Shown here piece by piece: positions 12,424 through 50,072 of a DNA stretch of 64,000 nt. Origin of the DNA: Haplodiscus bocki (taxonomy: Eukaryota); the NCBI GenBank assembly GCA_965655095.1, contig OZ296648.1, forward strand, positions 12,834,001 to 12,898,000, given 5' to 3'. The notes beneath the pieces were generated by a model. It was not told the origin of the DNA, ran no database searches, and saw nothing but the letters and a program-made list of their open reading frames with translations. Both the position numbers and the translations under genes were made by a program. The first letter of the stretch is position 1, and every line of letters starts with the position of its first letter.

Positions 12424-12470
<47 letters not shown>

Positions 12471-12486
12471 GAGATAGAGAGAGAGA
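12400..12486 (+). repeat. (CA)n/(GA)n microsatellite between the two gag zinc knuckles
   Basis: Direct observation. Confidence 0.98.
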
Positions 12487-25900: not shown

Positions 25901-27959
25901 TTTGTTTTCGGGTTAAAACTTCCTCAGACCCATGCGGTGGGCGCTTTATGACTTGTGAGTGCTGACTCTGCGAATGATGTAGTTGGAGCTAACAGTAATT
26001 TGATGAACTTGTACGGATCAACCCACTGAAAGGAGTGAAACTTTACCTTATTTGAGTAAGTGGTGTCGTCAAGTTTCAAACAAAATTGCAAAGTCGTCTA
26101 CTTTGAGCGGTGCGACTTTGGCTTTTGGGACGTAGTACCGTTTACACTTGTTAAAGGCTTCAAAGATCTTATCTAGTAAGTTTTTTTACTGATTTGTCAA
26201 TCAGTGTCTCGATGTCATTCTATGCGCAAGGCGCTTGGATCAGATTTGTGAACATCGAAAGACAGGCATTGAAAGATACTAGGTCGTAGATGTTTCCAGT
26301 GGTATAACATTTAATAGCTTGGTGGTACATGCTGTTAGGAACCATGAGGGCCATATACACGAACAAGTTCTAATGACGTGAATCGCATTCGACGTTGACC
26401 TTGGGATGTGTTCGATTTTCTGACGTGATCGCTCAATCATGCTTATGATATGAGCCAGATTGATGCTAGAATGTTCGACGTGGTTACTTGAATTTCGCAA
26501 GAGAGCCGTTATGAATTGTGAGGTAAAGAAAAGTCCTTTGTCCGTGAGTGTGTGTTGGGCCGCAAAAGCGTGTTGTGTGAAAATCTGCATTAAAGCTTCC
26601 ACCAGGGATGAAGAACCAAGTTTTCTCCGCCGTTGGAGTGAAACGGCGGACGCATAGCGCCAAAACCCGTCAGTGGCATTCAATACGTGTGTAAAACCGT
26701 TGGAGTTAGTTCTCAGACTAACTCGATTTCTTACATAACGGCCGGTCCGTCGCAGTGGTCGTAGATATCTTGTAACGGTGGTTCCGTTTATTTTGGCGTT
26801 ATGTTTGGCTTCAATAGAGTATCTGCAGCAGGCTGAACCGTTGAATTGGTCTTGCTAGGTTAGGTTAGTACTGGTGTCAAAAGGCGTGCAACAATTTGGA
26901 ATAACCAAGGTGTCCCTGCATAGGGTATCGATGTAATGCTTGATAATGCTCCTTGATACTCTTCCTGGTAACTCGACCTGTTTGTGTGTTCCGTTGCACA
27001 AGTATTTGTAAAACTTACGTTATAGTGAGTCTTTAACAAACCCATGGCGTTTCTTATGTTTACTAAGTTTCTGGAGTTGCTGAGGAAAAAGTTTTTTTTG
27101 GTGTCAGAGGGAGTCCGCCACTTCAAAACGCCAATCATTTGCTGAGTATCAAGGTTGTTACGTTGTAAGAGTGCTAAGGATTGTCGTTTTGTGGTTTTAC
27201 CCGGCTCATTAACCGGTACCGTAATGAGTTGCGAGGATGGAACCTGATGAAGTGTCGATGCTCATTACGCATGGAACTTCGTGTCAACGACACTTTTAGC
27301 GGTTGTTCGCGTTGAACAAGTTGCTCGTCTGTCTCACCTTGATTGCAGGAGAGTATTTGCATCACTGCGTTAATGTGTTTTGCTTGGGGTGTAGACTCGT
27401 TTAGTTGCGGCTCATGCTCATATTCGGTCACGTCATTGTGTTGTTTGGGCGTTTTGGCGACTAGGCCATTGTCGATGCGGCAGAGTGGTTTGGTTTCCGT
27501 GAGTTTGCGTTAGATCTTATGCTGATATTCTATTGCTATCAAAAAAGTTGGCAGCCAGCTTTCCCGTACCTGGTTTATTTGCAAAATTGCTAAAAGATTA
27601 GGAATTGGAAAGACTGGTCACAGTTTTTCCATAAGTTCGGTGGAAGCTGTTTCGGTGCCAAGTGCAAGAATATAAAATCTTTAGCGTACACAATGACTGA
27701 AATTCAAGTTGTTCTGAATCTATGGGACCCAAGGGCAATGGTATTTTGTCAAAAGGGCATAGCCGGCCGCATGTTTACTGGCATAGATCTATATGACCAG
27801 CAGTGTCTTCAGGAGAGGCAGTCTTGAGGACATCTTGGTTGCCTTTGCCAAGTTTCTGTTGATCTCAGACATAGCGTCGCGCATGGCGCTGGTGAGTTCA
27901 AAGTTAGTGTCTACTTGTAGAAGCATGTTTAATGAAAACAGTTTCTGGGCCAAATTGGG
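20000..27959 (-). mobile_element. 3' portion of decayed Ty3/Gypsy element G2 (RT thumb, RNase H, integrase, long 3' extension)
   Basis: Minus strand from 27959 reads PNLAQKL...YASKHAAGYAL (RT connection/RNase H), then integrase fragments (LTDKG...FTSQF, SMIERS; 26279-26683). The end of pol near 24990 resembles that of G1. Left boundary approximate. Confidence 0.85.
25192..25521. other. Assembly gap (330 N)
   Basis: Run of N. Confidence 1.
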
Positions 27960-28370
27960 AGTAGAAGAGTGAGAATCTTAGGTAGCGGAGACGTGTGGAG
28001 GTCCCTATGTGTTAAGATAAAATGTAGCAAACTGACTTGACCCCAGAGCCCAGACGGGAACTCCACCGTACACGAGGTCTCTCGGGTGCCTTTGGTTGAC
28101 TTAATCTTTGACTTCGATTGGATAACGAAGAAAATTAATCACCTTTGGCTAAAAACCGAGAATGTTCGTCTTTGTTTTAAGAAAAAGAGATGGCCTATTG
28201 ACTCATTTTCGGCGCTCTGAAACGCCTTCCAAAAAACCTTTTACACTTGTTTCCAGGGTCCATACTGGATTAAAGCTTCCGTCAGCTGTTACTTTTTCCA
28301 CCTGTGGTTAAAAAATACGCTTGCGGTTAAATATAACGCCGGCGGATACTGTTTCGACCTGATGCTTTGT
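27960..28370. repeat. Left terminal inverted repeat of Polinton B
   Basis: Reverse complement aligns with 45555-46049, e.g. AGGTCGAAACAGTATC...CCACAGGTGGAAAAA vs AGGTCAAAACAGTATC...CCACAGGCGGAAAAA, with CCTGGAAACAAG shared. Confidence 0.85.
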
Positions 28371-28459
28371 AATAAAGTTGTTTTAAATATTAAAACAATA
28401 TAATTTGAAAGTGAAAACGAGGAGAAAAATAACAATAGGTAATCGAATAGTCGGTATAG

Positions 28460-31400
28460 TTACTTATTGATAGGTTAATTGTGAATTCCATCACTGCCTA
28501 TCAGTCTTTTTGGTTGAAAGCAGGAGAGTTTTTTCAAATTTTGCCATTATTTAGCAACAGCTTTATTGTTTGTGCGGAAACCTCTGTTCGTTGACGTAAT
28601 AATCTCTTCGTCGTTCAAGACGTTAGGATAGTTTTCGAATTGCCTTCACCACTCTGTTCTACCACACGTTTGTTGGCTCCTTCGCTATTGACTTTAAACC
28701 TGTTTTGAGGTAAAATCATAGCAGCATTACGTTTTGCAACATACACATGACATATCTTTGCATGTGAACTTTTGTTTGAGGAGCCCAGACTCTCGCTTGT
28801 TGAGCTTCTCGTGTTCAAGTTTTGACATAACGCATTCGAGAGAAAAAATTGGTAACTGAGTCAACATTCAAACCATCGTCGTAATTTTTTTATTGCAGAC
28901 GATCACACTGCTTTCACTTCTGGTCGGATACAATCTTCCAAATCCTTCTCCTCAAAAGCAAGATACAGCGAATCTGTATCTTTCCGATTTGTTTACATCA
29001 CAGTATTTGGGGGAAAAGTTATACAACAGTTCCAAAATTTGTAGTTTTGCACATTAAAGAATAAAGAACCACACAATGATCGGTTCTTCTTGTAGAATCT
29101 GTGCTTTGACGAGTTCAATGAATTGTTCTAATGATCCAGCTTTTTGGATAATTGACTGTTAAAAACTGCACATGTCTTTTTGTCCGGGATACTTTGTCAC
29201 AGTGTGGTGAGCCAGGTGTGGTCCGAATTCCAGTAGCCATCAGAGTTATTGGTGAAGAACTTCATCGTCTCTGCGACAACTCTTGAGTTAGGATTCCTAT
29301 CACTCTTTCTGCATGCGTCTACTGCTGACTGTACAGAGCTGTTGAAACAATTCTTTGGAGCCCACTCAACGAAGATGTTTTTCTTTAAAAATGAGCCCCA
29401 GTTGCAAATAAAAAAACAGCAGAGGAGTAAGGAGAGCTCCTTTTTACATTGTGAATCTTGATGTCAAGATTTTTCGAGGTTGATACTATAGACCTTCTTC
29501 TTCGGCATATTTTTCCATGAAGTCTGCGTAATCACTCTTGCCAACTAAAGTGTTTTTGAAGAGTGGACGGAAATTAGCGAGAAAAGTTGTCAAAGTTTCA
29601 ATAACTTGAACGTTGCATTGGACGTAGACAGAAAGTTTCTCTTCCTTACTTCTTCTGACTTGATATTTTGTAAGCGAACGTCTAAAAAAGAAACATTCTC
29701 GAACTTGTATTTTAACGTTAATGGTTGCTTTGTACTGTCTCAATCAGTCATCCACCCACGTTTCAATGACAGTGAAGCTTTTTTTGTAGGTAACTACTTC
29801 TTAACCATCGAGATCTCTCTTTTTACTGCCACGTTGACTGGACTTTGTGGCGAAAGAGGGACGTACTTCTTAGCAAGGGCAAATTTGAATGAAGCAACCT
29901 ATGGCTTCAAACCGAGTGTTGCAAGGAGAATAAAATCTAAAAACACTGAAACAGTCATTTCTCTTCAGTCTGCTTGTAGGAGAAACAAGCTTTTCAATTT
30001 AAATTGTGGTCTTTTTCTTTGAAAAAAAAAGACATTGCCATCTTTTCAAAGTTTTTGGTCTTCCTGCGTTGAGGCGTGAATTAATTTATCTGATTTAGGA
30101 TTCCAACGCGTGCAATGACCATTTGGCATGGGTTGACACTTCTAGGAGGGTTATTCTTGGCTAGCACCAATCCCAGCAAGAGATTTGCATTTCTGTATAA
30201 TTTGTCATCTCAATGTAGTTTCATCAACTACTGCTTCAACTGTACAGCACTTATTTTTTGCTTTGTCCCCAAATTTAAAACAACATTTCTTTTTGTTACG
30301 CCAGCGCATCAAGTCTTTGGCAGAACTCATTTGACCCTGTTTCCACTTTGCTTGAAAGAATTGAGAGTTCTCTTTCCCACTAGATTGTGGCTTTGATGGT
30401 TTCAAATGGAAAACATCTTTTTTTTGTGGTCATTCCACTGTGCTACTGGTTAACATAGTCACTGTATTTTGCCTCGACAAGATTACAGTCACTAATATTA
30501 CTGTGAAAAGCGTGACATGGGTCGTAGTTGGTGTTCTGCATTTTGGTTATATGATCGAATCATTCGTGCGGGAAGAAATGTTTGATCTCTGGAGTTTTGC
30601 ATGCTTTTAAGAAGTAACTAAGATTTGTTGTTCCACCAAAAAAAATTTATGCCTGAAAGCTGAACATCACCGACTTTGAACGAGAGGATTTGGTTTGCTT
30701 GTTCAATAACAGTGTAATCGAAATTTCGTTCATTAACAAAAATGTGTAGCAAGTAGGATTTGATTAGATTGATGTCCTTTTTTGCCTCATTGAAGCCAAA
30801 CACTGGCAAAACATTGCAACAACGTTCGACTACTCATGGATGTCCTTTGATTGATTCTTTTGTGGTTTTAAGACCTGAGTTGTGGCACAATTTTTGCTCT
30901 CACAACCGTCTTAACTCATGTCAAATCATCCTACTTGCTCCTGTCGACTATTGCATTGAATGAAATTCTTCAGAAAGTTGCCCAAATTCGTCTCTGTAGT
31001 TGTCTCAAATTCAGGAAATACAAGTTTCATTTGTGCTTTGGTTTGAGAAACTACACTTTACAGAGATGCAGAAACTTGCAACATGTTAGTGAAGACCAGA
31101 ATTGCAATGAAGTTTCGGTACAGTAAAATTTTTTGAAGAAAAGGATACAGATATTGGAACAAGTTCCCCTATCGACGTTGTTGTCTTTGTACCTCCGAAG
31201 TTCTTTCGTGGACACCAATCGATTCCAAGTCAAATATTGCACTGTTTTCAATGAATTTTTTGTTTTTCGTGAACTTCTTTCCAAAAGACACCAGTTTGTC
31301 AACGAGAGTTTCTCGCGTTTGATGAACAATCATTGTATAGACACCTCTAATTCGTTCTTTGCATAAAGTTAAACTTCATTCTCAATTGAAAGTTCCGCTG

Positions 31401-32610
31401 AAAGAAGTGTGACAGTTACGACAACGGCAATATTGAAAGACTACGTTAATGATGTTCAGATAAGTAAATGCTTCTTAAAACTGAGTAGGGGGCTGGTACT
31501 ATCCTTTTTCCGCACACTTAGTCCAGCAACTCCTCGCAAAAAAATTCCATCCAAATTGTCACTAACTTTTAGTAAAATATTGAATGTTAGCAGATCGTAA
31601 ACAACTGGATTATTGTTCCTGTGAACTCCTTGGAACTGATTGGGGCTGACTCCGTCCGTTCTCATTAGGAAAAAGTGAAAATTTTCGAATCCTGTACCTC
31701 CGACTTTTGACCTCCATGCAATTCCACAAAGCAAGTGCACAAAAAAGGCACAAGTTCCAGTTCCTCGTTACATGGTTGTCTCGTGTTCTCTTCGAAATTG
31801 AGACCGTTGTTTGCGCAGTTTCTCAACAGAAGTTTCTGTAAATCAGCGTCGTTGCATCCCCTTGGTACGTTTTGGGTGAAGCAGCAAAGACTGTTGAGTT
31901 TGTCAGTTTGTAGAACCTCCTTTTTCTCATCATCCTTTCTCCACTAGGTGACTCAATGACGCCAGTTTTGTTGACAGGATCCTTTAGCATTGCCAGGTCG
32001 TCTTTGCTGCACACAGGTTTGGATCGATCCAGTACGGTATTGTTTCTTGGTCGTACAAAAGTCTCCATCTTCCAACTTCTATATCTTTCAAAATGAACTC
32101 AAATGCTAGATTCAGTTTTGCTGCACAATTTAGGTTGTTTGAAACTTGATCCAATTTCTCGTCAGTTATTGTTGCGTTCAGGTTTTCTCTCGTTTAATTC
32201 AATACTTTGTGTCTCGTCCTTTTAGGAACAGAATTCATGAGAGACATGAACGCAACTCCTTTCTAAGATTCGCATCATCAACCTCGTTGATGATATGGTC
32301 AAGATCAATGTTTGCTGTCTTAATGGGAAAGCCATCTTGAGTGTTTCTCTGTTGTCTTAAAGCGTAAAAACCTGGGAACTAATCGTAACACTGTTTACAT
32401 TTGAAGGTAACGTAAGGCTTTGGAGGCTTGTGTTTCTTCGCTGAATGGTAAGTTTGGTCATCACGGGGGCTGGTTGAGAAAGTGGAACATCTAGCGCTGT
32501 TCAATGCACCAACGAAACATCTGTATTTTTGTCGAGCCTAACTGTTTCTTGAAGTTTGTGCTCTACAATTTTCGCAGCTAATTTCTTCTTTTCTGGATGG
32601 GGAAGCCCCG
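28460..32610 (-). pseudogene. Polinton pPolB with N-terminal C2H2-like zinc fingers
   Basis: CENC/CKQC fingers near 32570-32390; PVFGFNEAKKDINLIKSYLL exonuclease segment (30618-30809); EEPIIV.FFIL..AKLQILELLY (~29080); MLCQN...CSKT...GDGIH-type C-terminus. Confidence 0.88.
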
Positions 32611-35600
32611 TTTTGTTAATAAAGGATTAACAAAACAGCCGGATAGAAGCGCAAAGTTTCTAGCAACTTAACTGTTGCAATGCAAAAAAAAATTGACAAA
32701 AAAGACTTAGCAATCGACTTTCATTGCTCTATGCCATTTTGAGAAGACATTAGAATGAATGAGAGAAAAATACGACCGTAAAAGGGATTTTTCAATGGCA
32801 CAACATTAAGATGAGCAGTCAAGCACCTTCCCTCATCTTGAAAATGAACGGTAGGTATACTTGAAAAACTAAAATTTTGAAAAAAACTGCTTGTCCGTGA
32901 AAACGTTTCAAGTGGACCAAGTTCTCTAAATTGGTCAGAAATTATATCACAGATCTTGAGATAACACTGAAATGGATTAACTTCCCCAAAGAACGCCTTC
33001 GAGGAAATCAACTAAAGGGAGCAAACTACCCGGTTAATGTGGAAGTTTGTCAGGAGAAACTACTCAAGTGGAACAAGTCTGCTTAACACGGAGACACCTG
33101 GCCTGAGAAAGCACTTTCTTTCCTCATCTTCATTTTCATCTCCACTGTCAATCAGAAAGATAACCCTTGACAGAACAAAAATTGATCCATGCATAGTGAC
33201 TCTGGTTGGAGGTCAAAAATAATGGAATAAGGAAAAGCAAAACAATACTCATCAGCAAAGTATTCTCGTGATCCGAAGCCTTTAACCAAGGAGCCACAAT
33301 TTCAAAATAAAATAATGAAAAAAACTCTAAAAATCAGATTGCTTCGAGTAAGGGCTTTACCAGTATTGCCATTGCTGAAAGTCGCAAACATTAGGCAATC
33401 TATATTCTTTATACTGCTGCTACACCACCGATAAAACCAATTTGCCAAATTCACTAACTGAAAACAGTTGGTTTATGTCAAAAAACCCAGTTTGTGCAAA
33501 CAAATTCTATGCATTTTAGGAGGAAAAACAGGAGGAAAATTCAGAGGAAACAGATGTTGTTTGTTATTCTTATCACAAAAATGTGACTTTCCCGAGTTCC
33601 TGTGTCGAAACATACGGGTTAACAAAGGCTCAAAGGAGAAATTCTGTTGTAGAAGGTCCAATAAAAGAATTTCTAGTTTTGCCACTTGCAAACACAGCAG
33701 AGTTAAAACCGTCACAAAGAACCGAACATTTTTAAAACAGATCTGTTTTTTGGTAATTCGTTTGCGCGAATTTCTCAAAACCTTCGACCAAGCTATAAAG
33801 TTTTTGCAGATTTCATTACCGATACCCAAAACTGAGATTGGATCTACACAGTCAGAAGTCAAGCTCTTCGTTCTTTGCTATTAAGATACCTTTGAACATC
33901 CAACTGGATCAATTTCTGTATCGCTCCTATTCGAAAACAACAAATTTCGCATCTTTTCCAACCAAACGTTTGAAATCCATGGTAAGCAATTCTTACTTAC
34001 AAAACCTGTCAACCTCAACAATCGTGAAGTTTACCAACTAAACAAAAACCCTCATCACGTTCCGAACAAGTGTGAATTAATTGAGGGCATTTAGGATTTG
34101 TAACACATTCACCCCCGATTGTCAGCATGACAATAGCAATATCAAGTTTATTGGAAACGTGCACTGTCCGAATAAAATTTGCCCCGAGAGACATTGAGTG
34201 CTTAATAAAACGTTTCAATCGCCTAAAAGAAGTTGTCATCAAAAACCTCAAGGCGAGTCCAGATGTCAGGTCCGACTTATATCTTTGAGAAAACAAACAC
34301 ATTTTTTAGTCTTATTGTGTAACCAAATGGTTTACACTTTGAAACAGACGCTAAATTCACTTCAAGTTGTTATTGGAAGTGTCTATTGTCCATACACTGG
34401 GAAAAAAGTGTGTTTAGGTTTCATCCGGTGAAGCATCCAGTTTCTAGGACTGCAAAAAATGCAAAGCCATTTCTCACATACTTAATGTTCCGTTTGAGGC
34501 ACCGACAACGACATTGTTTCAATTTAGTTGAGATTTTGCGCACTTTTTCACCAAAAAGACGAGTGGTGACTACGAAACAGAAGAACCCTGTCTAATGCGT
34601 TAAATGTATCTCCGCCAACCAAAGCCAGTCATACTTCATCTTGAATCAAAAAACGCTAAATCATTCCATATATAGCATATTCCTGTCGACTTCCCAACTG
34701 CTCATACAATTAGCCATATTTAATTCCTGTCTCATTTCATAAAATATCAGTGTACAATGAAACAGCATGATTTTGTTAGTCTCCATCAACAGTTCTCGGT
34801 GGTTTTTGACTTTAGTCCAGATTCAATTTTTCTGGCTGTAGAAGATCACGTCTTCAAATTGACAAAACGTTCCATAGCAATTCCCCGGCCGGACTGGAAA
34901 GCGTTATTGTCCCGAGGACAACAACTTTTAGATAACCATTTGGCTCGAATCCCAATCACAATGAACCAGGTAGGAACACATAAAAAGAGGGGTGAATGAC
35001 TCTCAAGTGTAGGGTATCAAAACATGGACAGACGTGGGTATGAGATGACCAACATAGAGGCCATTGAGTTTGACTGGGATGATCCTGATCAATTAATGGA
35101 TGCAGTTCTCCGACGAGGCAGGGACACTTCCTTTGCACCACTTTGAAATGGCTTCAAATCCTGGAAACCCGGTTTTTCTGACAAAGAGCAAAACAAGGAG
35201 AAAGCTGCTCTTTCTGCAACAGTTCCAGTCTCTGAGAGACCAACTCGACGCCCTCGGTTGCTGAGAAATTGCCCCTCGGAAGAATAATTGTGATTGTTCC
35301 CGATTAGGTTTATTGAAGTCTGTTAGAATATTTTTGAATATTTTTACTCTGTATGTATTTTGCTGAAACAATGAAATTCTTGTTTTGTTATGACATAAAT
35401 GTTTCAAAAACTAGTCAGACATGTGCGAGACAAAGGAATTCTCTTTTCGCTATCATTATATTTTTCAGTAGCAGGTAGTTTCTGCATACCTCAAGTTCAA
35501 TCGGAGTAAGAAATGGGCTACCACAGTGGGATCAAAAGTCAACTTCTTTGTGAAAATGACAAGTAATTTTGTTTCAACAGCGAATGATATTAAATAGTTT

Positions 35601-35714
35601 AGAGAGATTTTGTAGATTGTAAATGTTTTTGGTGGTACAGATGAAAACGTTGCCAAAAGTACATGTGGTGGAAAATAGGTTTGATTTTAACATGAGAAGA
35701 GACGAAAAACGTTT

Positions 35715-36065
35715 AATTCAAAATCCGACACAATGTAGAAAACTTTTGATTCAAAATCGGACAAGTTGTAAATTTTTCATATCGGAATCCGACATGTTGT
35801 AAAAATTGAATTCCGAAAAATGCTTTTGAGAAATCATGCGAACTTCGAAATATGTCGTCGACTCGGAGTTAAAAGATTCAAAACGTGATTTTTCGAGTGC
35901 AATGGTTTTTTTCCAAAATCTGAAACGTTTTGGAATTTATAAAAACTGAAAGATTGTGGATTTTTTAGTTGATAATCTGGAAGGTTGTATTTTTTTAAAA
36001 CAAAAGATGACGGGTTTGAAAAAGATTCATTCAAAATCTGAGGTGTTAAAGCTTTTATTTCAAAA
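35715..36065. repeat. Degenerate ~30-bp minisatellite (TCAAAATCCGAC..GTTGTAAA core) inside Polinton B
   Basis: Repeated CAAAATC(C/G/T)GA units in intergenic sequence. Confidence 0.7.
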
Positions 36066-36965
36066 ATTGTTTTTTATTTTGTCTATCATGTCCTAGCATA
36101 AAAACGCCTCACTTAAAAAAGATTGTAGGGAATGGTCAGTTTTTGTTTCTCTCCTCAACAATGGAGTCTGAATAATTGTCGGTTTTGTTAATGTTCTGGG
36201 CCTGTCCTTGGCTGAGTTAGTTATCTCATTTGCACAACCAAATGACATTTACAGGACTCGTTGTGGTTCAAAAGTTGGTAAGTTTGTAATGGTTCTATTT
36301 GAAAAGTTACTAAGGTACTAGGATAGTTTTTTTAAATGTTTATAAGACTTTAAATACCATTTTTTCAGTTCCAATTCAATGCTAGTTGTTTACACGTGTT
36401 CAAATTTTTCTGCAAAGAAAGATCTACTGGTTTGTGTTCATTTTTCTTTTTGGAGAGAACGCAAGTTTTTGCTTCCTTTGTTTTTTCCTCAAAAGTTTTT
36501 TTAAGCGACGCTCGGCTCTCCACTCCTTTGTTTCTTTGATTAAAATAGACACATCTTTGAACATTATCAATCATTCTTCCTCTCTTGACAAAGACCTTAT
36601 CAGTGTACCGGTACTTGAAAACTATTCTTAGGCAATCCTTGTTTTGGTAGTTAAAGCAGAGTATGTCCAAAAACTGAAGAAATTCTTTAATCCTTCCTTT
36701 TGGCATAATGTGATAACTGCAAGTGGATAGGAAGCAATGTTGTCAAGTTAGCCGTTGTCAAGCGCAATATAACTGTCTTTACTTACGCTATGTTTTTTAT
36801 GAGTTTGCAGAAACCAAAACACTGTTTTTGTTATATTTCTCATTAAAACTGGGTAGCGGTTGTAACATTGCAATTGCCATATGAATTTTGAGACTTTTAT
36901 GAAGAAACGATTATGAAAAACAAAAAAAGAATAATTTTTGTACAAGTTTGTAGAAAATGGTATTA

Positions 36966-37076
36966 TCACGTGACATTGACCAAAAAAGGAGGAATTTCTT
37001 CATTTGGAATTATCACGTGAGAATGACCAAGAAAGGAAACATCATGTGACCGTGACCAGAAGAGAAGCGTATTAAA
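36966..37076 (+). promoter_or_regulatory. Three TCA(C/T)GTGA-n3-TGACCA motifs followed by TATTAAA; putative Polinton promoter
   Basis: Copies at 36966, 37013 and 37042, with a TATA-like sequence at 37070, ~100 bp upstream of the first + strand gene and at the strand switch. Confidence 0.55.
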
Positions 37077-37176
37077 GCGACAACTTGCAGCGCTAAAGTC
37101 ATTCCTTAACATCCTTCTCAAAACTAAATCACTTTTTTATAAAACTACCGGCGTTTTATCTCAACGACGAAACCTG

Positions 37177-37753
37177 ACAGCTTACAACATTACTGCTTCC
37201 TTGGATAAACTCGCATGTTCCGACTATGTGGACTTTGGAAAACTCCTAGACAAATTTGATTGATTTTGTTGATCCAGAATTGATTCCTATTACCTGGATG
37301 AAAAACTCAAAAAGTTCGAGAAAGGTGACAACAGATTTTCGCCTGCGACAAAGTGTCACAAATGAAAAGAAAAACTTAAATCAATTCACGCGTTTGAAGA
37401 ACCAGCTGGTAATTGCAGCAAAACATTTCGGTACGGAGGAAAATATGTCCCTAGTGCTGATACCAACAATGTCCAAAGACACGGATGAACAACTCAAACT
37501 ATGTCACAAGAAAATTCACGTCTTGGACCCCCTCAACAGGAACATTTGTGTGACTCTGCTGTGGTACACTGTAGTCAAACCAATGAATTGAAGTGGTAAA
37601 GTCCAAAATTTTGCAAGGAACAAAGAGCACGAGAAGTTTCAACGAATTGTCTATGTGAAAAATATACTTGAAGAATTTGTCTTTCTATTCGATGTAGTGA
37701 ATTCTGTATGTGATAAAAATATTACTAACAAACCCATTTGTATTGTTCTATAA
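37177..37753 (+). pseudogene. Polinton accessory gene, possibly tandem PC4-like ssDNA-binding domains
   Basis: AYNITASLDKLACSDYVDFGK...NQFTRLKNQLVIAA...NRNICVTLL with frameshifts. The fold assignment is from recall only. Confidence 0.45.
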
Positions 37754-38644
37754 GTAATTGCAATTATTTAGTCTTTATCTTTTTTCATTACATTCGAAAC
37801 AGAGTGGGTTGAAAAGTTGGAGGTATTAGAAATTTCTTCCACAAGAAGAGAACAAAATTGGGACTATATCATATTGTACCTACATCTCCAGAAACTTTTC
37901 CACAAAAACTCAGTCCAACTGTAGTTCAAATGCCACAACTACCAGACATTGAAAAGACTGCTCTTAAAGAACTGTTTTGCCTAAATGCGACAATTGATAA
38001 TGGTAGGAGAAAAATTTGTGTAAAAGTCAAGAGTGATACATAAAAGTTGAATGTTGTCGTGTACCGTCATTGAAACAATTTTAACCTCGAAGATGACGAG
38101 GTTGATTTGCAATTGACAAATTACCAGACGCTTTTAACCAAACAAGTGTATCTTCTGAGTTACATTGAAAAACGTTTCTGTCACAGAATTGTGCTGGATG
38201 ATACAACTGTTCATAATTGGAGAAACTTTCCATCGAAAATCGATGTTAGCTTTCTGTTGAACTTTTTCTGTTAAAACTTGGGACAGAAATGTCGTTCAAT
38301 CACAGTGGTTGAAACGAGACCCTTTTTTAGTGCTTGCCGCTCTCAGGTTAATCGACTTTCTTTACGTGAGATGTACCAACGAAGTAACTCGGCTGGAATC
38401 CTTGGTTTTGTGGACACATATTTGGAGTTGAAATTTTGTCATTCCGGAGTAATTAGACTACCTGTAATACTAGTTGATGCTGTTGCAGCAGTGCGGTCAC
38501 AGAGTGGTAAAGGTCCTGGTTACTGATGTATGTTTGGACGAAAACAAGAAAATTGCGTGCTTGGTCACGTGAATGGACTACTCTTTTGCCTTTATGCAAC
38601 CGTTTTTCACCCTTCCATTTTCAGTCTGTCGATTCTGAAGCAGT

Positions 38645-39120
38645 ATACTTTGCCTTGTAATAGATATCGAGCTGGCAGATTTTAACGTCAATATGGAGTT
38701 CTTAAAGATGTGAATTTTTTGTGAGTTTCATTTTGTCCTCCACAAAACCAAAAAACCCACAAAGGAAACAACTCATTGTACAGGAGATTTGCAAGAAAGT
38801 GTGTCTAATACTGGATATTTGGATAAAAAAAGAACTTGCAATCTTTGTTCCTAAAGATATAAAAGTTGAATTAGAAATATCTGCAAAAGGGACATTCAAA
38901 TGCGAATTTTTTGTTTTTCAATGGCTGAAGACAGAAAATTTGGATGATAATGGCTGTCCTGAAGGTCATGATCTTGTTCATCCCAAAGCAGAAGAAGTAT
39001 TGTGAATTTGCTCAAGCTAAATATACAGGCACAACACTACATTTCGCTGTGCTCAAGCAAATCAAAATTGCTTGCTAACCGGATGCTGCAGCTTTTGGAA
39101 TTGTATAATTTGTTTTGTGA
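38645..39120 (+). pseudogene. Polinton accessory gene, DEDD-like 3'-5' exonuclease remnant
   Basis: VIDIELADF at the N-terminus, AKG, ENLDDNGCP and a C-terminal ICSS...RH..FRCA segment. Confidence 0.5.
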
Positions 39121-39466
39121 AATGTATTGTCAGTACCTACGTAATTACAACTTTTGAAACAATTCATTTTTTTACAGGGTTCAATTTCGAGTAATCGAGC
39201 GTATAAGCTAGATGACTGATCAAGTAGATATTAACAAATCTGAGCAAAATTTGTCTTTGAAGACAACAATCAAAAGAGACAGTCGTGGTCTTGTTTGGGA
39301 CAAACCTGTTACAGATCTCTGATCGTCTTTCTGTGCCAAATTCTTGTCATTTAATTGATGATCTTTAGTTGTTTTTGAGAATTCTTTCAAAAATTTGTGA
39401 TGAATCAACTGTTTGAAAGTATGTCCTTTGTAGTGCAACGGAATACATTCTATCCCCACCAACAAA

Positions 39467-40110
39467 TTTAACAGGTTAATTTCTACGAAAAATTGTGTCC
39501 TAACATATTCGGTCGCTTTGTCCGAGAGGGGCAAATCACAACTTATTCACAATTGGCTCACAATTGGAACGTTTCAAATAAATTTTGACAAAATTCACGT
39601 TTTTTAACAACACTCGCAACTAATTTACGATGTTATGCGATGAGAATTTGGTATTCTTGAGTTTTTTTTCGTGCACACTTCCATTTTGTTCCGACCATTG
39701 TTCATTCTAAACCAATCCGTGATGTGATGCATTTCAGTACGCTTAGTGCACAATTGGGAGTCAGATCACAGCTAATTGACTGGTACTGAGACGCAAACTT
39801 TGTTCCCAACGCTCAAATTTTGATTGATTTGTTGCGACGAACGGACAATCAGTTATGTTATTAAACAAGCACTGGATTCATTCCCTTAGAAAACTTTTTT
39901 CCCGACGGGTTGAAACATATGAAACATTTGGACGATGAACACACAAAATTTCTTTTGTCCTCAACTGTTGCAACCAATTTTCTACATATGCAAAAGTCTT
40001 TTCCTTCAGTCTTGCTCAAAAGCGCTCATCAGGACACTCTGTGATTGTTAAGAAAATCTGCTCAAACGCAATCTGCAAAGCATAAAGCGACAACACGTGA
40101 CAAATTTTCA
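39467..40110 (+). pseudogene. A32/FtsK-like genome-packaging ATPase (internally deleted)
   Basis: Degenerate Walker A LSERGKSQLI, FDKIHVF, then RDVMH..LSAQLG..LIDWY.DA...LIDL. The Walker B region appears deleted near 39690. Confidence 0.8.
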
Positions 40111-40635
40111 GTACCAGTTCTGATTGTTTTCTGTACAAGGACACTCTGAAGCAGAAAAGGGACGTTTTGGAGTCCGAAAAGAGTCTTTAACTCATTAAGG
40201 TCATTACTACCCCCGTCAATAACGCTTCTTCGTGAAAAGGAGCTGTGTACTCGTCCCTGTTACCGTGTAGCATAACAAGGGATTGATTACCCTGGCAATT
40301 AGAACAAAGGTGTTTCCGAAGTATCAAGCCAAACAGAATCCCACGCACCAAATTAACTCGCTTGAAAAGGAAACAAACAAAAAGTTGTTTGCCAGAGAAG
40401 ACTTTTGAGTGGATCGAATTGTGTCCTGTCCTCGCGTCAATCTCTCAAAAATGCAACCCTTGACATTAGTTGGTGTAGAAACTGGAGCTCTACTGTAACA
40501 CATTGTTCAACAATGGCTCGTGAAAACGCAGAGAAACCAGAAGTTTACTCTAAGTCAGTTCACGCTGCTTGTATAAATGGGTCTGTTGTTCTGAATCAAA
40601 AAACCAAAGCCAAAGTTAGAAAAAGTTTTCCAAAA

Positions 40636-41510
40636 ATTGAACGTGAGAAGCTGCAAAAAGTTTACACCCAATGTGGTGCTGCTTATGGCCCTATGCGCAA
40701 GGTAGTGAGAGCTTGCATTTCGTTAGATTTCGAAGTGAGCTAAATTTTGCATCCAAACTTTTTTTTGGCAAGTTTACTATGGCCCCGTGTAATTTCACAA
40801 AAGGAGGGCTTTTGCTAGACTCCAAAACTGAATTTGGTGTATGGATTGGGCCTATTTGGATAAACAAGCTAAAAACAATGACATTGCAAAATATCTACTA
40901 TTTCGTCAAGACTAGTTTTATGGAACCGTGGATGCAAAAAGAATTGAGAAAAAAAAAGATTCCAAAGAAACGAATTGTGCGTTTTTAACTATGATTACGA
41001 AAAAAACTTCACACAAGAAAGAAGATTTGCTGTAGAGTTTTTAAGATTTTGTAAAACTCAATGTATACAATTCTACCCCTAAAAAAAGATGTTAAGGTTG
41101 GGGTCGCTGAACGTACAAGAGGAACGTTGAATAGTATTCTTTACCGTCACATGGGAAACTATAGATGAAGGTACATTCGCAAATTGTCCTTTTTTCGTCA
41201 CATCCCTGAAATCCAGAAACAAATGTTCGTCAAACAAGATATCACTTGTCGAGTATTCCGACGTTTTGTCCATTCTGTGCAGCAAACTACTACCATAAGA
41301 TAGAAAACCGAATTTCAAAATTGGAGGCAGAGTTTGTTTCTCGAGGAATAACTGACGCTTCAGGAAGTGTTATGGACCACAGTTTATTCAAGAGGTCTGT
41401 GAAGTTGTTTCTATTTCTTCCATAGAGCCCCAAAACACAAAATAAAAGATGACCAGATTGAAATTATCTGTAGTAAGTTTTACAAAAAAAATTGATCAAA
41501 ATAAATTATT
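40636..41510 (+). pseudogene. Retroviral-like (rve) Polinton integrase
   Basis: KLQKVYTQCGAAYG, WCMDWAYLDK...KYLLFRQD, AERTRGTLNSILYRHM and FKIGGRV. Confidence 0.85.
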
Positions 41511-41511
41511 C

Positions 41512-42300
41512 TTGGATTTGTTCACAACAGATTGGTCTCAAATGCATCTCCACGACATCTTTCGAACAAAGCATTTAGCTCGCTTACAAACTTTTTGCCG
41601 GAGCAACTGAATCTGGAGAGCCAATGGGAGGTTGCTAGTTCACGAGTATCCTACGTTTCGATGTACCAAAATACTACAGAGAAGTTCATGTTTCTTCATG
41701 AAAAAGCTTCGAAGTTCTTAGTTTTTTTGAAAATCTGAAACACGGTCTTTGTTCTCCCATTACAGATATTGTTGAAGCTTTGAACACTCTCAATCATGAG
41801 ATACACAAGCACAACGAAAACTGTATTACAGTTAAAATGTATCAAAAGACGCAAGACTTTGAGGTTTACCTTGTGAATGAAGGATCTGGTCGTGCATTTT
41901 TTAGAATGGACTTGGGACACATATCCTGAAGTAAAGTTGGCAATGAGAATGGAAACATTTTGAGAAGAAAAAGACCTCAAAAAGCAATTTTTGCTCAAAA
42001 TTCTGTCCCCATAACGTCCTCAAGGTATAAACAGACCTGATTTAAAGCAATGATGTAGGCGACGCAAAAGTGCCTTTGCTGCGTTGCTTCCTTTTTATTT
42101 CTAAACTAAAAGCTGGAGACATTTCAATTACTGCACACTACTTGAACTATCAGATATCAAACAACCTGTAACTCAGACCTCTGCACAATATTTCTTTTTA
42201 TGGTATTCATAGACACAAGTGGTGAAAAGAAACCTTTTGCATCTGTTGGCATCACTAGTCTTTGTTTGATGTTGGAAAAAGTTTGCGACCTTGATTTTTA
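41512..42300 (+). pseudogene. Minor capsid (penton-like) protein
   Basis: LVSNAS...SSLTNFLPEQLNLESQWEVA..VSY.SMYQN N-terminus and VGDAKVPLLRCF C-terminal part, as typical of Polinton PX/penton. Confidence 0.75.
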
Positions 42301-42310
42301 AAGTAAGAGA

Positions 42311-42660
42311 ATGTTCAACATACTTCCTCGAAGATTAGTGGAGTTTCCACACTATGGATGTCCACACCAGGGTAACAGAATCGGTGCCCTAGCACAACAT
42401 ATGGGGAGAACAGAAATTCCATTTGTGCGAATGTGTCCTCTCGGTTGCAAAATATCTCGTTGCGGACGTGTTGGAAAATGTTGCCCCGGAAGTCGTAACG
42501 AGTGTTTGTAAAAATTTTCAAGAAGGCTGCAAATAGTTTGGGTGAGCAAACCATGCGAAAATTGCGTTGTAGTAATAAGATAAAGGTAGCTGCGGCAGAA
42601 TCTCTCAAACAAACCAGTCGGTCACGGCGAGCCATAGGTACGAATTTTTCTTGCTGATCA
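42311..42660 (+). pseudogene. Basic core-like protein (G-x-G protease-site family), copy 1
   Basis: HQGNRIGALAQHMGRTEIPF, positioned between penton and MCP. Confidence 0.55.
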
Positions 42661-42779
42661 TGTGATCTCAAAGTAAATTTTTCTATAAATTTTTTGTGGT
42701 TGTTTCCAGAAATTTCGCAGGGAAAGCGTCAGTGGCTTACAACATCATGTTGTGCCTCGAACTTCACATGAAAACTGTT

Positions 42780-43680
42780 CCATTACGTCCGTCAAAAGGA
42801 ACTGCTGAGCACTTGAGTTTTTCAAATGGAAGGGAACTACTAAGTCATTCTGAAACAGTTTTTTTGACTTTTGTTTTTGAAATTTATCAAAAGTTGATAT
42901 CACTGTACTCTCACAATGGGAAATTTGAAAAAGGCATAAAAAACTCAAGAGAGGCTACAGCAGATGAAATTTGGTTGTTGCTTACGTCATTGACCGCAAA
43001 CACTCTCTCTGAACATACACAGACGTGTTTAAGTACGACATTGTTATCGATCCAGAGAATTCTTTGCAGAGCCTCTTTTCGTTTTTTTTCGTAGCTACAA
43101 TTTGGAGAAACTAGTATTACTGGACAGTCCATAAACTATCGGACATATAATAACATACAAGTTTCTATCAGACCGCTGCTCCAAACATTTTTTCTTAGTT
43201 TGAGCATTGATTTGCAGGGACACGGGTGGTGAAAAACATGCCTTTTGTATCTGTCATTAACGCTCGTTTTTTATATTGAGGAAAGTCCCACCATTCGATT
43301 CAAAAAGACGGTAAAAAATGGTTTTTTCAAGACAAATAGAGATTCGAATCTACAGAAGTCTTGGTCGACAGCATGGGAGGGGATTCCGTGCACTTGCACA
43401 TGTTATTGGGAGAACGACGGCTCCATTTTTCAGTAAAGGTGTTGCCTTAGCTGTAAAACGTGTTATTTTTGACTTGTTAGGATTTTCTTTGCCAGAAAAT
43501 GCAAAGTTTGATAGCGGTGGAAAAAAATTAGGTTAGCTGCCAAGAGAGTGGGAAGGCAAACTCCGAGAATGCAGTTGGGTCGTCGTAGCCAGAAAAAGAC
43601 TGCCAGCAGAGGCATTCCAAAAAATCTACAAAACAAACCAGTCGGTCGCGCAGGGACATTCTAACGAACATTTATCACTG
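42780..43680 (+). pseudogene. Second, diverged copy of penton C-terminus plus core-like protein
   Basis: 42960-43310 is homologous to 41980-42300; RQHGRGFRALAHVIGRTTAPF at 43318-43536. Confidence 0.7.
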
Positions 43681-43709
43681 ATCATGTTCAATACTTTTTG
43701 GTATCAAAT

Positions 43710-45011
43710 TTTGTGGCACTTTCTGCGAGCCTTTGAGGGAAAGTCTCAGTAGTTGGCGATGTCCTGTCGTCCCACGAACAAAAAACTAGTCCTAATACCT
43801 CACTCGATGGAAACTCCGTAGAATCCGATCGTAACGCTTACCTTGATTTGCGACAAACTTATTTGGGTTTGAAAATGAATTTCGCCAGGGTTTGTGGTCA
43901 TAAATTTTGCTAAACCGAAAAAGAAAACCATAAGACAGAATCAAAAGAGATTGCAGAAGCAGGAGAAACAAAACAGGAGGTAGAAAACGCAACAATTCTT
44001 CCGATTATTCAAGTTATATAAGTTTTGCATTCATTTTTTCTTTTGTTGAGGTGTACATCAACATAAAGCAATTATACAACTCTAATGGGTTGGACTCGCA
44101 CAAATGCTAAGTTTCCAACATTTTCGATGGAACCGTTACCGAAAGAAAGGAGTTTCGACTGCGAAGAATATGACTATGAAGAATATCCTGATGAGATTTT
44201 TAAAGCACCCTTGTCTGAACATTTTTCAATAAGGAAAATGAGAATACTTGGTGGACCCGATGGATTCATGTTGAACGGTAAATTGGGGGTTGAATTTTTT
44301 CCTTTTTCAAAAGGCCAAATATAATCAAAAAACAAGCTACGACAAATCAGAGCCAGAGTTAATTTCCATATTCATTAGCGGCAACCACGACGTTGGTTTT
44401 GCAATTGCTTGCCTAACACTCGTCGCTTTGACCTCAAGAATGACTATCACAAGAGAAGAATGGACATGCCTGCATACACCCGCGAGGAATACAATTTCAT
44501 GGAGACTTTGGAAAAGACCTTTAACATCACTGCCAGACAAAACCAGTTTATTCAAGAAAACAATTTCAACAAAGCTCCAATTCGTCGCATTGCCATTGCA
44601 AGGAATACAAACTCTGCAACTATTGTATCATACATTGAAAAACCACTCTGATATCAGCAGTTTGATCCAAGACAAAAAGTAATACCCTAAGATGGACAGC
44701 ATATTCTACAAATTGAACCTGTTTAAAAATGTCGCCTATATGTTACGCCAATGAATACAATGAACTTTCTAGATGATATCCGCTCAATTTTGATTGGTAA
44801 ATTCGAAGATATGTATATACTCTTGTCTGACCAAACCTCAATGCAAAATGCTACGGAAAATTGTCATGAACTGGAACCAGTTTGAAAGCTTTCGAGAATG
44901 GAGCTAAATTTTACTTAAATTCTAAACCGCGCTACTGAAATCCTTGTTTTGGGGTAACAAATGTCTTCGGTTGCAGTTGTCAAGTTCTTTGTTGTTCGAA
45001 AAAAAATCTAG
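43710..45011 (+). pseudogene. Major capsid protein (double jelly-roll, Polinton PY/hexon-like)
   Basis: VEVYINIKQLYNSNG, CEEYDYEEYP, GKLGVEFF, TFNITARQNQFIQENNFNKAPIRRIAIARNTN and ELNFT...VLG..MSSVAV. Confidence 0.82.
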
Positions 45012-45012
45012 A

Positions 45013-45399
45013 ATGGACAACGTTGCTCTTCAGCAATTAATCAAACGTGTTTGTTTCTCAAACATCGGTACATTCAATGCTTTCAAATTATGTTCCAACT
45101 CTACCCGATGAGGCATTTGCCAAAATAAACACGCAACTCATGAGTTTGCAAGGTGAATATTGGATATTAAATGCAAAATCTTGTCGAGACTTGTTTTTTG
45201 AAAACTCTCTTGTAGCTGATAGGTACAGTTTCCTCAGGCAGCTCTACAAAAAGATATTACCGAAACGACTACAGTCCAATCCCAGCTTTTGCGGTTTCTG
45301 CACAATATATGCAGATGTTCATCTCTTCTAGTTCCGGCTACAAAAATTAGTGCAGTTCACGATGTTATCGTACATTCATTAATAAATGCCTATATGTAA
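45013..45399 (+). pseudogene. Adenain-like cysteine protease
   Basis: INTQ...QGEYW (catalytic His of GEHW lost), LFFENSL (FxDSL-like) and LQSNPSFCG. Confidence 0.85.
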
Positions 45400-45554
45400 G
45401 TATTCGCCCTTTTCAAAGTAAATACGCCGGTTATACAAGATCTCTGTTACTGTTGTCTTTTTTATTTTAACTTGCTCAAACTTTAAAATATTCTTCAGAT
45501 GTAGAGTTGCATGAAAGCAAGGACCCGTAGCAAACTATGCAGCCCCTATAATAT

Positions 45555-46049
45555 CGAAAAATTAGGTCAAAACAGTATCGGCAGGCGTAATAAGTCAACG
45601 GAGACGTAATAAAAAACCACAGGCGGAAAAAAACCGCTGACGTAACAATTACTTCGGGAGGGATCCTGGAAACAAGTTCAAAATTCTCTGCTTTTCAAAA
45701 AAGTCTCACAGCTCCAAAAGTGAGGCTTTAAGCCCATTCCCATTCCTAATACTTTACCAAAACCTTTAACTTATACCACCACACTACCGATTACTAATCA
45801 TTTACATGATGCTTTGCCAAACACTCTCGCTTTTTCCCAAAACCGAGAACTTGTAGGCAGCCAATCAAGCGTGAAAAATCCTCAAAATTTGCTAGCCAAA
45901 CAAAATTGACTTGTAATTAGCCGAAAAACATTGGAGAGCTCCAGGCTACAGTGATGCAACTTTGTCGGCTCTCGGTTCAAGTCGGTTTGCTATAGCTTAA
46001 CTCATAATGTAAGGCCTCCAACCCCGCCTGGTCTTCTCACTCGTTTATT
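45555..46049. repeat. Right terminal inverted repeat of Polinton B
   Basis: Inverted homologue of 27960-28370. Confidence 0.85.
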
Positions 46050-49000
46050 CTTGGGTATGTTCTGTGTATAAAAAAATAAGAAAACTGATGTAACATTGCG
46101 GTGACTTGACTCAAGTGGGCGCTTTTAGATTTTTTGGAAACGAATCGATTTTATGTTCCATGGGGTTGATCAAAGGAGTGCAGATCGTGTTTGCCATAAA
46201 TTCAACTTCCTTTTGTCCGAACAATCATTTGTCAACTGGGAGCTTGGGGCTGCTCCATCAGTTCACTGAAAAATGATTTCTTTGATCTGTATCAGTTTCA
46301 GGGTACAGTGTGCTGCAATACTATTGTCGCCGACGTATTGAGCAAATTTGTCGGCTTTGACGATAAGGTCAATGTATTACGTGACGAAATTCAAAAAATT
46401 TGGAAAAGAAAAGTTTAAACCTTGAGCAAGACGTTTGTATGCAATGTCCTAAACCGAAGATGAATGACAGGAACTCGATTGATTGACCGTTTGCCATCTG
46501 AAGACCGCGATAAACCTTTGAGCAATACATCTCACAGAAGTATTTTTCCAGGCCAAATGCTGTGTTGCCTCAACATTGGTTGTTACCGGACGTTTATGTT
46601 CAATATACTCATGTTTAATGAAGTGGTTGTTGCGTCGTAAACCCAATAGCAGACAGAGTTCACCACTGTTGTTTCACTGGCCAAACATGGGGAAGAGTAT
46701 TTGCTGAATAGCTACGTAGCCTTTTAATCATATTTCTGCATTGAGTTTAGTTCGAGTAGTATTTGGTCTTTAAGGTTATTCGGCGTAGTCAATTTCTGTG
46801 CGTGCAAGGGATCGTTGAGTTGGATGATCAATTGAAAAGTAGTCTAACTTTAATCTAAAATGGCCAATGCTGGAGTGCCCACTAGCGCTTCTTTGCTGGT
46901 GATGGTTCATGTTATTTATGCTGTGAATCTCGTTGTGCCAATTTTGGCAAGGTACACACTGGAAACATGACTTTATGGTATGGTGGTAGGAAAACCCTCT
47001 GGGCGGTTCTTAGATTGCACAAGTCACAGCTGTATTTTGCGTTGGCCTTGCGGAGTTGGAGAGACACGTCTAGTGAAGTGTATCAGGTGGATACAGATGT
47101 CCAAGGTAACTGAGTACTGTTTGAGAATTGACATTCCGATAAGAATGTATTCCTTTTCATAGAACCCTGAAGGTTTCCTCAAAATAATGGCTTGGTATGA
47201 AAAACCATGAAAAGGCTTGTTTTGTGACTGGGACTATACTTCTCTCGGCTATTTGGACCTTAAAGTTCGATGCAGGCAATTGTTGTGTAAGAGCTGTAGA
47301 GTTGGTGACGGGAACACAACAAAGTTCCGTTTCACATATGGCGCTTTGGATGGCCGCGCTATTTAGTACTTCTTGAATTTCGTATTGTTCAAACTGTAGA
47401 ACTACATACAACATTCGGTCACGTCTCACGTCTCTTTAATTGAATAGTAGCAGTCAACAGCTTGACCTCAGATGGTTTATGTGTCTCTCGAAACGATGTT
47501 TTCCTTGTCTGTCTTTCAGTCGGTGGGATGCTTCAGGCCACTTTATCCTTTTGTGTTGCTGTTGCTCGACGCTCTTCTGCTCGTTCCTAGTTGCATTCTC
47601 AGTCGCCTTTTACTTCATTGGCGTTCTAAAAAATGACTCAATTGCTGTTGTTCCCGTCGTTTTTTGTACAGGAGCATAGTAAAAAAAGGTAATTGAGGCT
47701 CAATTCAAAGTATAGTGTTTCTTTGAAACTTTCTTGCCTTTAGAAAGCTGCCGACTTTCCAGGGGCTATTTGTTTTCGCTTTTTTTTCTATTTAATGTAG
47801 TCCGAACAATTGGACGGTTACCTGATTTATCTAAAACTTAAGGCTCACATTGTTTATTTTGCTTCGAATGGCGTGACGATTCTCATTTGAAGAATGGGAT
47901 TGAAACGATTCTTCTTCGGAATGGGAAGCGTTGCTGTGGGCTTTGAACTGTTGATTCATCTGGAACTGTCGTTTGTGTGCTTGCTTTTAACCTTTTCTAA
48001 AGCCGCGGTTTTCGTCTGAGTTCTGGCGTTGACACAACGATTTTACGATAAGCACTCGTTTTTGCTACATGCGGGGGCGAAGTGTCTAGTTTAGCCTCAA
48101 ATCTGGCCCAGCGGTACTGGATTTTAGCTTGGTGTAAATTGTGTTGGCTGGGCTTGTGGTCGTTGTTCATTGGACTCCATTTTTTGTGGGTCATTCTGGA
48201 CGAATTTCCACGTCTTTGTTCTGCATTCGACGGTTTTGTGGCTCATCTTGTTACAGTAGAAACTTGTGACAATGAATATGCGTTGCTGTTCGTTGTTATC
48301 TGGGGTGGGCCTGTCATTCTGACTTATGTCCGTTCCAGATTAAAACTCCTAAAAAAATTGTGGCAAATGTGTACCCATCAACTGTTGATACTCGTAATAT
48401 TGTTGAATAAAGTCTCTGTTTTCATCCAGCATCGCATTTTGTTTGCCTGCAACACTGAGGTATTTCTAGATGGCAACCGGTTGCTTGCCGAACAGGAAAG
48501 TTTTGACATTCTCGTTGTTTTTCGAGTAAAATGCCTGATTCGCTGTTCTCTTGAGGTGTTATAAGAACTCAGAAAGTGATTCATGGTGTGGGTAATAAGT
48601 TTGATGGTCCCATTAAACCCTTGATACTCCATTGAAATCATCTCGGATCTACTCTCAGCGAAACATCTAACGGACCTCAAGGAGAGTTGTGTCGGAAGTC
48701 ACCTTGATGGTTTGTCAGAGTTTGATTGCGTCTTCTCTGAGTAGGCTGGTGAAAAACTGGTGCTTCTAATGTACTTTGATCTTATTCTGAAAAAGTTGGA
48801 AAGTCGTATAACTTTCTGAAGGAGGCATTCCAACTCGTTGTGGCATTCTTTTGAACCTTTTAAAAACGGAACATCTGTCTGGATAAATGTACATTTTCGG
48901 TTTGCTGCTCCGTATCATGTTGGGGTTTTCATCAACTGCGTCATGTCGGGCTCATCTTCATTGTCCTTAGGCTGATCGTGGTCAGAGTTTGTGAGATTGT

Positions 49001-50029: not shown

Positions 50030-50032
<3 letters not shown>

Positions 50033-50070
<38 letters not shown>
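50033..50070 (+). repeat. (GA)n microsatellite
   Basis: Direct observation. Confidence 0.98.

Positions 50071-50072
<2 letters not shown>

What the first reader, a model, noticed from the sequence alone, without database searches (positions are those of the whole stretch)
27954..46055. An entire 18-kb endogenous DNA virus (Polinton) sits inside the reverse transcriptase of a Gypsy retrotransposon, with the junction reconstructable to the codon
Seen: on the minus strand, RT reads ...YTQNIP up to 46050 and resumes PNLAQKL... at 27959, matching the conserved FYRxxIPNLA segment. The flanks ATTGGG and CTTGGG give the 6-bp TSD expected for Polintons, and the ends are inverted homologues. All core virion genes (MCP, penton, ATPase, protease) plus polB and integrase remain in order. 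Inference: a datable palaeoviral insertion giving a complete gene map for this family; heavy TIR divergence implies great age.
Basis: partly seen in the sequence, partly recalled or inferred. Interest (0 to 1): 0.7.

Follow-up and report, generated by a model that had tools for sequence, protein, structure and literature searches.

The report
Fossil Polinton nested in Gypsy retrotransposon
An 18-kb, fully decayed Polinton (Maverick) DNA-virus copy sits inside the reverse-transcriptase gene of an old Gypsy-type retrotransposon; the insertion is real but ordinary, since it is an old member of a family that likely has thousands of copies in this genome, many far better preserved.

Summary
Observation confirmed. 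The element spans 27960-46049 between ATTGGG and CTTGGG. Aligned separately to uninterrupted relatives, the two retrotransposon halves overlap by exactly 6 nt in 12 of 15 loci and fall in the same clade in separate trees. The two terminal repeats share a stem (support 0.999), and public-run contigs cross both junctions unchanged, so neither refutation holds. polB, ATPase, integrase, minor capsid, major capsid and protease are present and collinear with other copies, but all 19 frames tested are broken. The terminal repeats are 70% identical, against 94-98% in eight other copies, so this copy is old; no calendar date is possible. The family fills 5 of 40 sampled 10-kb stretches (5.7% of bases, interval 0.7-12.6%), so landing in a Gypsy pol gene is expected by chance, and better gene maps exist elsewhere in the genome. 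Verdict: a new member of a known kind, low interest. The genome-wide Polinton load is the more interesting lead.

The parts
27954..27959 (.). left copy of the 6-bp target-site duplication (ATTGGG)
   Evidence: 6-nt overlap on uninterrupted relatives
46050..46055 (.). right copy of the target-site duplication (CTTGGG), one mismatch
27960..46049 (.). Polinton/Maverick element, 18,090 bp, full length, all genes decayed
   Evidence: 37 of 37 tiles of 500 bp map in order on one comparison copy at 68-79% identity, one segment twice
27960..28377 (+). left terminal inverted repeat
45546..46049 (-). right terminal inverted repeat, 70% identical to the left
28466..32785 (-). protein-primed DNA polymerase B pseudogene (25 stops, 45 frameshifting indels)
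   Evidence: homologue in another copy falls with PF03175 clusters by Atlas features, 0.95; Pfam scan itself gave no PF03175 hit
33438..38217 (.). block of conserved accessory frames of unknown function, all broken
   Evidence: no Pfam hit over cut-off
38223..38632 (+). pseudogene with a PLA2X-like His-Asp motif (name inferred from motif and PMC8502044, not tested by profile)
39402..39917 (+). packaging ATPase pseudogene with an internal deletion of about 190 bp
   Evidence: relative hits Pox_A32 at E 1e-4, just under cut-off
40595..41500 (+). retroviral-type integrase pseudogene
   Evidence: relative hits rve at E 3.5e-10, over cut-off
41478..42297 (+). minor capsid (penton) pseudogene
   Evidence: Atlas features 0.97-0.98 to viral clusters, one named Sputnik minor capsid V18/19
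41990..43965 (+). tandem duplication of about 1 kb (penton 3' part, PW/core-like gene, MCP 5' part); junction near 42967/42978
   Evidence: contigs cross it unchanged; none of 39 other matches spans the junction
43592..45008 (+). major capsid (double jelly-roll) pseudogene (10 stops, 12 frameshifts)
   Evidence: model of a relative's protein matches PBCV-1, iridovirus and virophage capsids, best E 5e-15
44930..45396 (+). adenovirus-type cysteine protease pseudogene
   Evidence: relative hits Peptidase_C5 at E 0.002, under cut-off
46056..51845 (-). 5' part of the host Gypsy-type element (repeat end at 51845, gag-pol up to the RT thumb)
19972..27953 (-). 3' part of the host element (end of RT, RNase H, integrase, further unidentified sequence); no 3' LTR found
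50352..51245 (+). later copy of 44360-45250 (MCP 3' half and protease 5' part), 91% identical, set in the host's 5' region between ~100-bp direct repeats (50246-50348 / 51239-51342, 87% identical)

Best explanation
One Polinton (Maverick) genome sits in the RT gene of a Gypsy-type retrotransposon between two copies of a 6-bp target, and was likely put there by its retroviral-type integrase in a single old event, after which both elements likely decayed without selection. Shown: boundaries, target duplication, one host subfamily on both sides, common origin of both ends, gene order, breaks in every frame. Inferred: integrase as the agent; the site was hit by chance; insertion came soon after the host's own arrival (similar branch lengths); the 1-kb duplication is at least as old as the insertion; the 0.9-kb capsid copy at 50352-51245 was copied from this element much later, probably during break repair.
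For: Projected overlap of the two host halves is exactly 6 nt in 12 of 15 loci (two of the 12 are the same place). Both halves group with the same relatives (L027, L020, L021) in separate trees, terminal branch 0.27 each. The two TIRs form a clade with support 0.999 and share 35 derived letters against 10 unshared in 323 columns; both are one AGT unit shorter than the usual family end. Distances to reference frames are 0.20-0.44 at second codon positions, against 0.03-0.08 among other copies, as neutral decay predicts. Contigs from 3 of 3 runs laid cross the right junction with no differences, and from 2 of 3 (listed pieces) the left. Six of eight other copies show readable 6-bp duplications, four perfect and two at 5 of 6.
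Against: The target copies differ at one base. Three of 15 loci did not give an overlap of 6 (7, a late-starting alignment, a partial copy). The relatives' trees are star-like, and support for the shared host clade is 0.91 and 0.98. The two copies of the internal duplication share almost no stem (0.004, support 0.54) and the first is more diverged (0.44 against 0.32), which a simple duplication at insertion does not predict. The runs come from one study and may include the assembled sample.
Confidence: 0.92

Rival explanations
1. The ends come from one insertion, but the integrating genome was itself an out-of-register recombinant of two Polinton lineages, which would produce the 1-kb overlap with two unequal copies.
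For: The duplicated copies are as far from each other (K2P 0.43 pairwise, 0.61 in the multiple alignment) as or further than the TIRs (0.38, 0.49), and share no supported stem. Third-position distance is 0.54 in polB against 0.37 in MCP.
Against: No closer subfamily for the first copy was found among 39 other matches (mostly 64-68% over long stretches). Its excess divergence lies in the redundant core and truncated MCP part and is flat over codon positions (0.51, 0.44, 0.47), which also fits decay of a redundant segment in the parent lineage. This rival changes only the internal history, not the nesting.
Confidence: 0.25
2. The element is a chimera of two genomic Polinton copies joined by ectopic recombination, or an assembly error.
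For: TIRs only 70% alike; thousands of homologous copies give the opportunity.
Against: Recombination between copies at different sites would join unrelated flanks, yet the flanks are contiguous with a 6-nt overlap; TIRs share derived letters; contigs cross both junctions and the duplication junction unchanged.
Confidence: 0.03
3. Polintons of this family target LTR retrotransposons, so the nesting reflects site preference and not chance.
For: Only this one case; the flanks of other copies were not classified.
Against: Target hexamers of other copies are unrelated to each other. Gypsy pol fragments alone cover 0.9% of the sample (3.5 of 399 kb), so tens of such hits are expected from thousands of insertions (my arithmetic).
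Confidence: 0.05

Closest known systems
Animal Mavericks/Polintons (vertebrate set of PMC8097293; passages and section 8 read)
   Same: pPolB, rve integrase, ATPase, protease, major and minor capsid; order integrase, minor capsid, PW-like gene, major capsid, protease; TIRs; 6-bp target duplication; AGT end motif; size within 12.7-24.6 kb; degraded like most copies in that study.
   Different: The ATPase lies on the integrase strand, not in the polB module; a larger central block of unknown frames; one AGT unit at the end; a 1-kb internal duplication; copy number far above the vertebrate maximum of 287.
Adintoviruses with PLA2X (PMC8502044; passages read)
   Same: Integrase, hexon, penton, protease and a PLA2X-like frame near the ATPase.
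   Different: Alpha or Beta class was not tested by phylogeny; the PLA2X name rests on a motif only.
Stony-coral polintoviruses (PMC11131425; passages read)
   Same: Mass amplification in an animal genome: 1,676 regions and about 7.8% of the genome in one coral, similar to the 5.7% estimate here.
   Different: No sequence comparison was made; the host here was not identified.
Degraded Maverick insertions in placental mammals (PMC9683012; passages read)
   Same: Ancient, stop- and frameshift-ridden insertion evolving like non-coding DNA.
   Different: Those lack TIRs and are dated by orthology; this one keeps TIRs and target duplication but has no orthologue data.

Membership tests
Polinton/Maverick | protein-primed DNA polymerase B | tested here: met
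   Atlas features 0.95 to PF03175 clusters for a relative's fragment; window 28466-32785 aligns over 4247 nt. Pfam scan did not hit PF03175.
Polinton/Maverick | retroviral-type (rve) integrase | tested here: met
   rve E 3.5e-10 in a relative; window 40595-41500
Polinton/Maverick | A32-like packaging ATPase | tested here: met
   Pox_A32 E 1e-4, 22.4 bits against cut-off 22.8, Walker A visible; window 39402-39917
Polinton/Maverick | double jelly-roll major capsid | tested here: met
   Model of a relative (pLDDT 70) matches PBCV-1, Sputnik and mavirus capsids, best E 5e-15; no DJR Pfam hit for this family
Polinton/Maverick | single jelly-roll minor capsid | tested here: inconclusive
   Atlas features 0.97-0.98 to viral clusters including Sputnik V18/19 (26% of that cluster's members) and expected position; fold prediction failed, pLDDT 28
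Polinton/Maverick | adenovirus-type protease | tested here: met
   Peptidase_C5 E 0.002, under cut-off, in the expected place after MCP; weak but consistent
Polinton/Maverick | TIRs with AGT end motif and 6-bp target duplication | tested here: met
   right end motif decayed, one mismatch in the duplication
Intact (potentially active) Maverick | uninterrupted core frames | tested here: not met
   19 of 19 frames inside the element carry stops or frameshifts
Alpha adintovirus | Alpha-class PolB and virion module with PLA2X | not tested
   Only a PLA2X-like motif was seen; no phylogeny or profile test
Ty3/Gypsy (host) | RT, RNase H, integrase order and Ty3-like RT thumb | tested here: met
   Relatives hit RT_RNaseH_2 (E 0.005) then rve (E 5e-8) in that order; the junction-spanning frame of a relative has Ty3 RT as best PDB match but only at E 0.11
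Ty3/Gypsy (host) | pair of LTRs | tested here: inconclusive
   A repeated 5' end starting TG at 51845 (537 candidates); no second copy in window 1-28500 above control level

The most novel reading that the evidence does not exclude
This copy marks an early wave of a Polinton family that has kept invading one genome over about 0.25 substitutions per site and now fills several percent of it, thousands of copies, among the largest Polinton loads in an animal; its 1-kb overlap records recombination between two viral lineages before integration, and its capsid gene later served as a template for break repair 6 kb away.
Probability: 0.3. Interest if true: 0.4.

Novelty: new member of a known kind. 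Interest (0 to 1): 0.2.

Why it matters
As a single locus it matters little: nested insertions and decayed Mavericks are well known. It gives a clean relative chronology (Gypsy, then Polinton, then a templated copy at about a quarter of that age) and a good teaching case of a target duplication checked against empty sites. The wider point is the genome: thousands of candidate copies over a wide age range would allow Polinton lineage turnover, recombination and target choice to be measured.

Tried and rejected
Pfam scans of this family's frames missed polB, MCP and penton. tblastn of a polB fragment against phages found nothing. The homologue search on MCP timed out; the representative search gave 3815 hits at E 0.001 with almost no names. 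MCP frames of the genome's other, Pfam-positive Polinton family (L037-L040) did not match the window, so they are a different family. The penton fold failed. G1's RT gave no PDB sequence match; G1 is only about 29-44% identical in protein to the host element and is too distant to test the junction, so closer relatives were used. No second host LTR was found, so LTR dating was impossible. No other copy with the duplication junction (0 of 39) and no closer donor for its first copy. The automated TSD tally misplaced some ends; TSDs were read. Many short joints and very high depths come from other copies and were not interpreted. Literature searches on a recalled guess about the host group found 0 and 1 papers (listings only) and the guess was dropped; the host is not identified. 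A search for nested Polinton insertions listed 14 papers; passages of PMC12220804 describe the reverse nesting, retrotransposons inside Polinton-like viruses. I did not find a paper on this locus, but the searches were few. Earlier scan notes: none.
Full report
Observation. The hexamers ATTGGG (27954-27959) and CTTGGG (46050-46055) bound an 18,090-bp insert. The ends align as inverted repeats from the first base: about 27960-28377 with 45546-46049, 70% identical over 403 columns, K2P 0.38. A 5-of-6 match between random window hexamers occurs 0.7% of the time. The only N run, 25192-25521, lies outside the element.

Are the two host halves one element? I searched the genome with each half and aligned each separately to 15 loci. 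The projected end of the upstream half and start of the downstream half overlap by exactly 6 nt in 12 of 15 loci (L023 and L027 are the same place); the others gave 7, a late-starting alignment and a partial copy. In separate trees with 13 relatives, both halves group with L027, L020 and L021 (support 0.91 and 0.98), with terminal branches of 0.27. Two relatives map along the host from 19972 to 51845 and pass over the insert. Relatives show RNase H then integrase after RT, and the frame spanning the site has Ty3 RT as its best, weak, PDB match (E 0.11). No second LTR was found in 1-28500. G1, on the plus strand near 11900-16700, is a different family at about 29-44% protein identity.

Is the insert one Polinton? 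All 37 tiles of 500 bp map in order on a comparison copy at 68-79% identity. The two TIRs form a clade against three other copies (support 0.999, stem 0.21, tips 0.28) and share 35 derived letters against 10 unshared. Contigs of public runs cross the left junction (X1, X3), the right junction (X1, X3, X4) and the internal duplication junction (X1, X3, X4) with no differences; these runs are one study and may include the assembled sample, so they test assembly, not population frequency.

Genes. The longest frame inside the element is 157 aa, so identities were taken from other copies and transferred by alignment. Order: polB on the minus strand (28466-32785); a block of unknown frames; a PLA2X-like frame; ATPase (39402-39917); integrase (40595-41500); minor capsid (41478-42297); a PW/core-like gene (named by position, after PMC8097293); major capsid (43592-45008); protease (44930-45396). 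Support: integrase rve E 3.5e-10, ATPase E 1e-4 and protease E 0.002, the last two under cut-off; polB by Atlas features, not by Pfam; major capsid by a model matching PBCV-1 and virophage capsids; minor capsid by Atlas features only, its fold having failed. All 19 rows inside the element carry stops or frameshifts; polB has 25 stops and 45 frameshifting indels, against 2-9 and 1-11 among six other copies.

Age. TIR distance is 0.38 pairwise or 0.49 in the multiple alignment, so 0.19-0.25 per end, and 0.28 on the tree. Eight other copies have TIRs 94-98% identical (K2P 0.02-0.07), six with readable 6-bp duplications (in one copy the inverted repeat extends over 3.5 kb and into the flank). Second-position distances of 0.20-0.44 show mostly neutral decay, and the third-position excess points to lineage divergence before insertion (inference). 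The host's branch is 0.27, so the Polinton probably arrived soon after the host. TIR dating assumes identical ends at insertion (general knowledge of these elements). No rate is available, so no date in years.

Missed features. A ~1-kb tandem duplication (41990-42967 / 42978-43965) repeats the penton 3' part, the core-like gene and the MCP 5' part. The copies are 67.5% identical, share no supported stem, and the first is more diverged. No other match spans its junction (0 of 39) and no closer donor was found. It is at least as old as the insertion; duplication with decay in the parent lineage and recombination of two lineages both remain open. Separately, 44360-45250 is copied at 50352-51245 with 91% identity (K2P 0.095), between ~100-bp direct repeats that are single in a relative; no other copy in the genome exceeds 75%, so this element was the template, at about a quarter of its age.

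Abundance. The left TIR gave 959 candidates, the MCP stretch 3410, and the DJR capsid profile 5490 with 126 scored matches, whose top four belong to another family. Candidates are not copy numbers. In 40 evenly chosen 10-kb stretches, 5 held this family, 22.7 of 399 kb or 5.7% (bootstrap 0.7-12.6%, driven by two stretches; reversed controls 0). Gypsy pol fragments covered 0.9%, so tens of insertions into Gypsy pol are expected by chance (my arithmetic).

Comparison. The features match those given for Mavericks in PMC8097293 (passages and section 8 read), where most copies are degraded and vertebrate counts reach 287. PMC11131425 (passages) reports about 7.8% of one coral genome, so a load like this has precedent. 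PMC8502044 (passages) defines PLA2X; PMC9683012 (passages) describes older fossil insertions; PMC12220804 (passages) describes the reverse nesting; PMC6431247 (passages) added only background. Supplements were not read.

Verdict. A real, single, old Polinton insertion in a Gypsy-type RT; new member of a known kind; interest 0.2.

Noticed in passing
window 60099-63941 (-): Remnant of a second, more distant Polinton polB (26-42% protein identity to this family's frames), running to the window's end.
   Followed up: no
window 326-1567 (+): Weak polB-like match (about 21% identity, E 1e-10) in an AT-rich stretch; probably a third Polinton family.
   Followed up: no
window 50352-51245: Templated copy of this element's MCP-protease stretch, 91% identical, between ~100-bp direct repeats of host sequence.
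   Followed up: yes
window 51622-51826: Inverted repeat of 92 nt, 97% complementary, at the host's 5' end; relatives match the same stretch in both orientations, so it may be a family feature.
   Followed up: partly
window 6556-19940: G1, a second Gypsy-type element on the plus strand with 1.8-kb direct repeats at 6602-8406 / 9375-11317 (77-79%); it abuts the host's 3' end near 19940.
   Followed up: partly
window 19972-23523 (-): Several kb of conserved host-family sequence downstream of the integrase with no Pfam hit in the three relative frames tested; could be an extra gene.
   Followed up: partly
L011:429-3996 / L012:6017-9588: A Polinton copy whose inverted repeat is 3.5 kb, 98% identical, includes the MCP-protease end on both sides and extends into the flank.
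   Followed up: no
G000, genome-wide: A second Polinton family with many uninterrupted capsid frames (126 scored DJR matches) that does not match this element.
   Followed up: partly
window 2100-2332: Perfect 60-nt inverted repeat with a 113-nt spacer, probably a young MITE.
   Followed up: no
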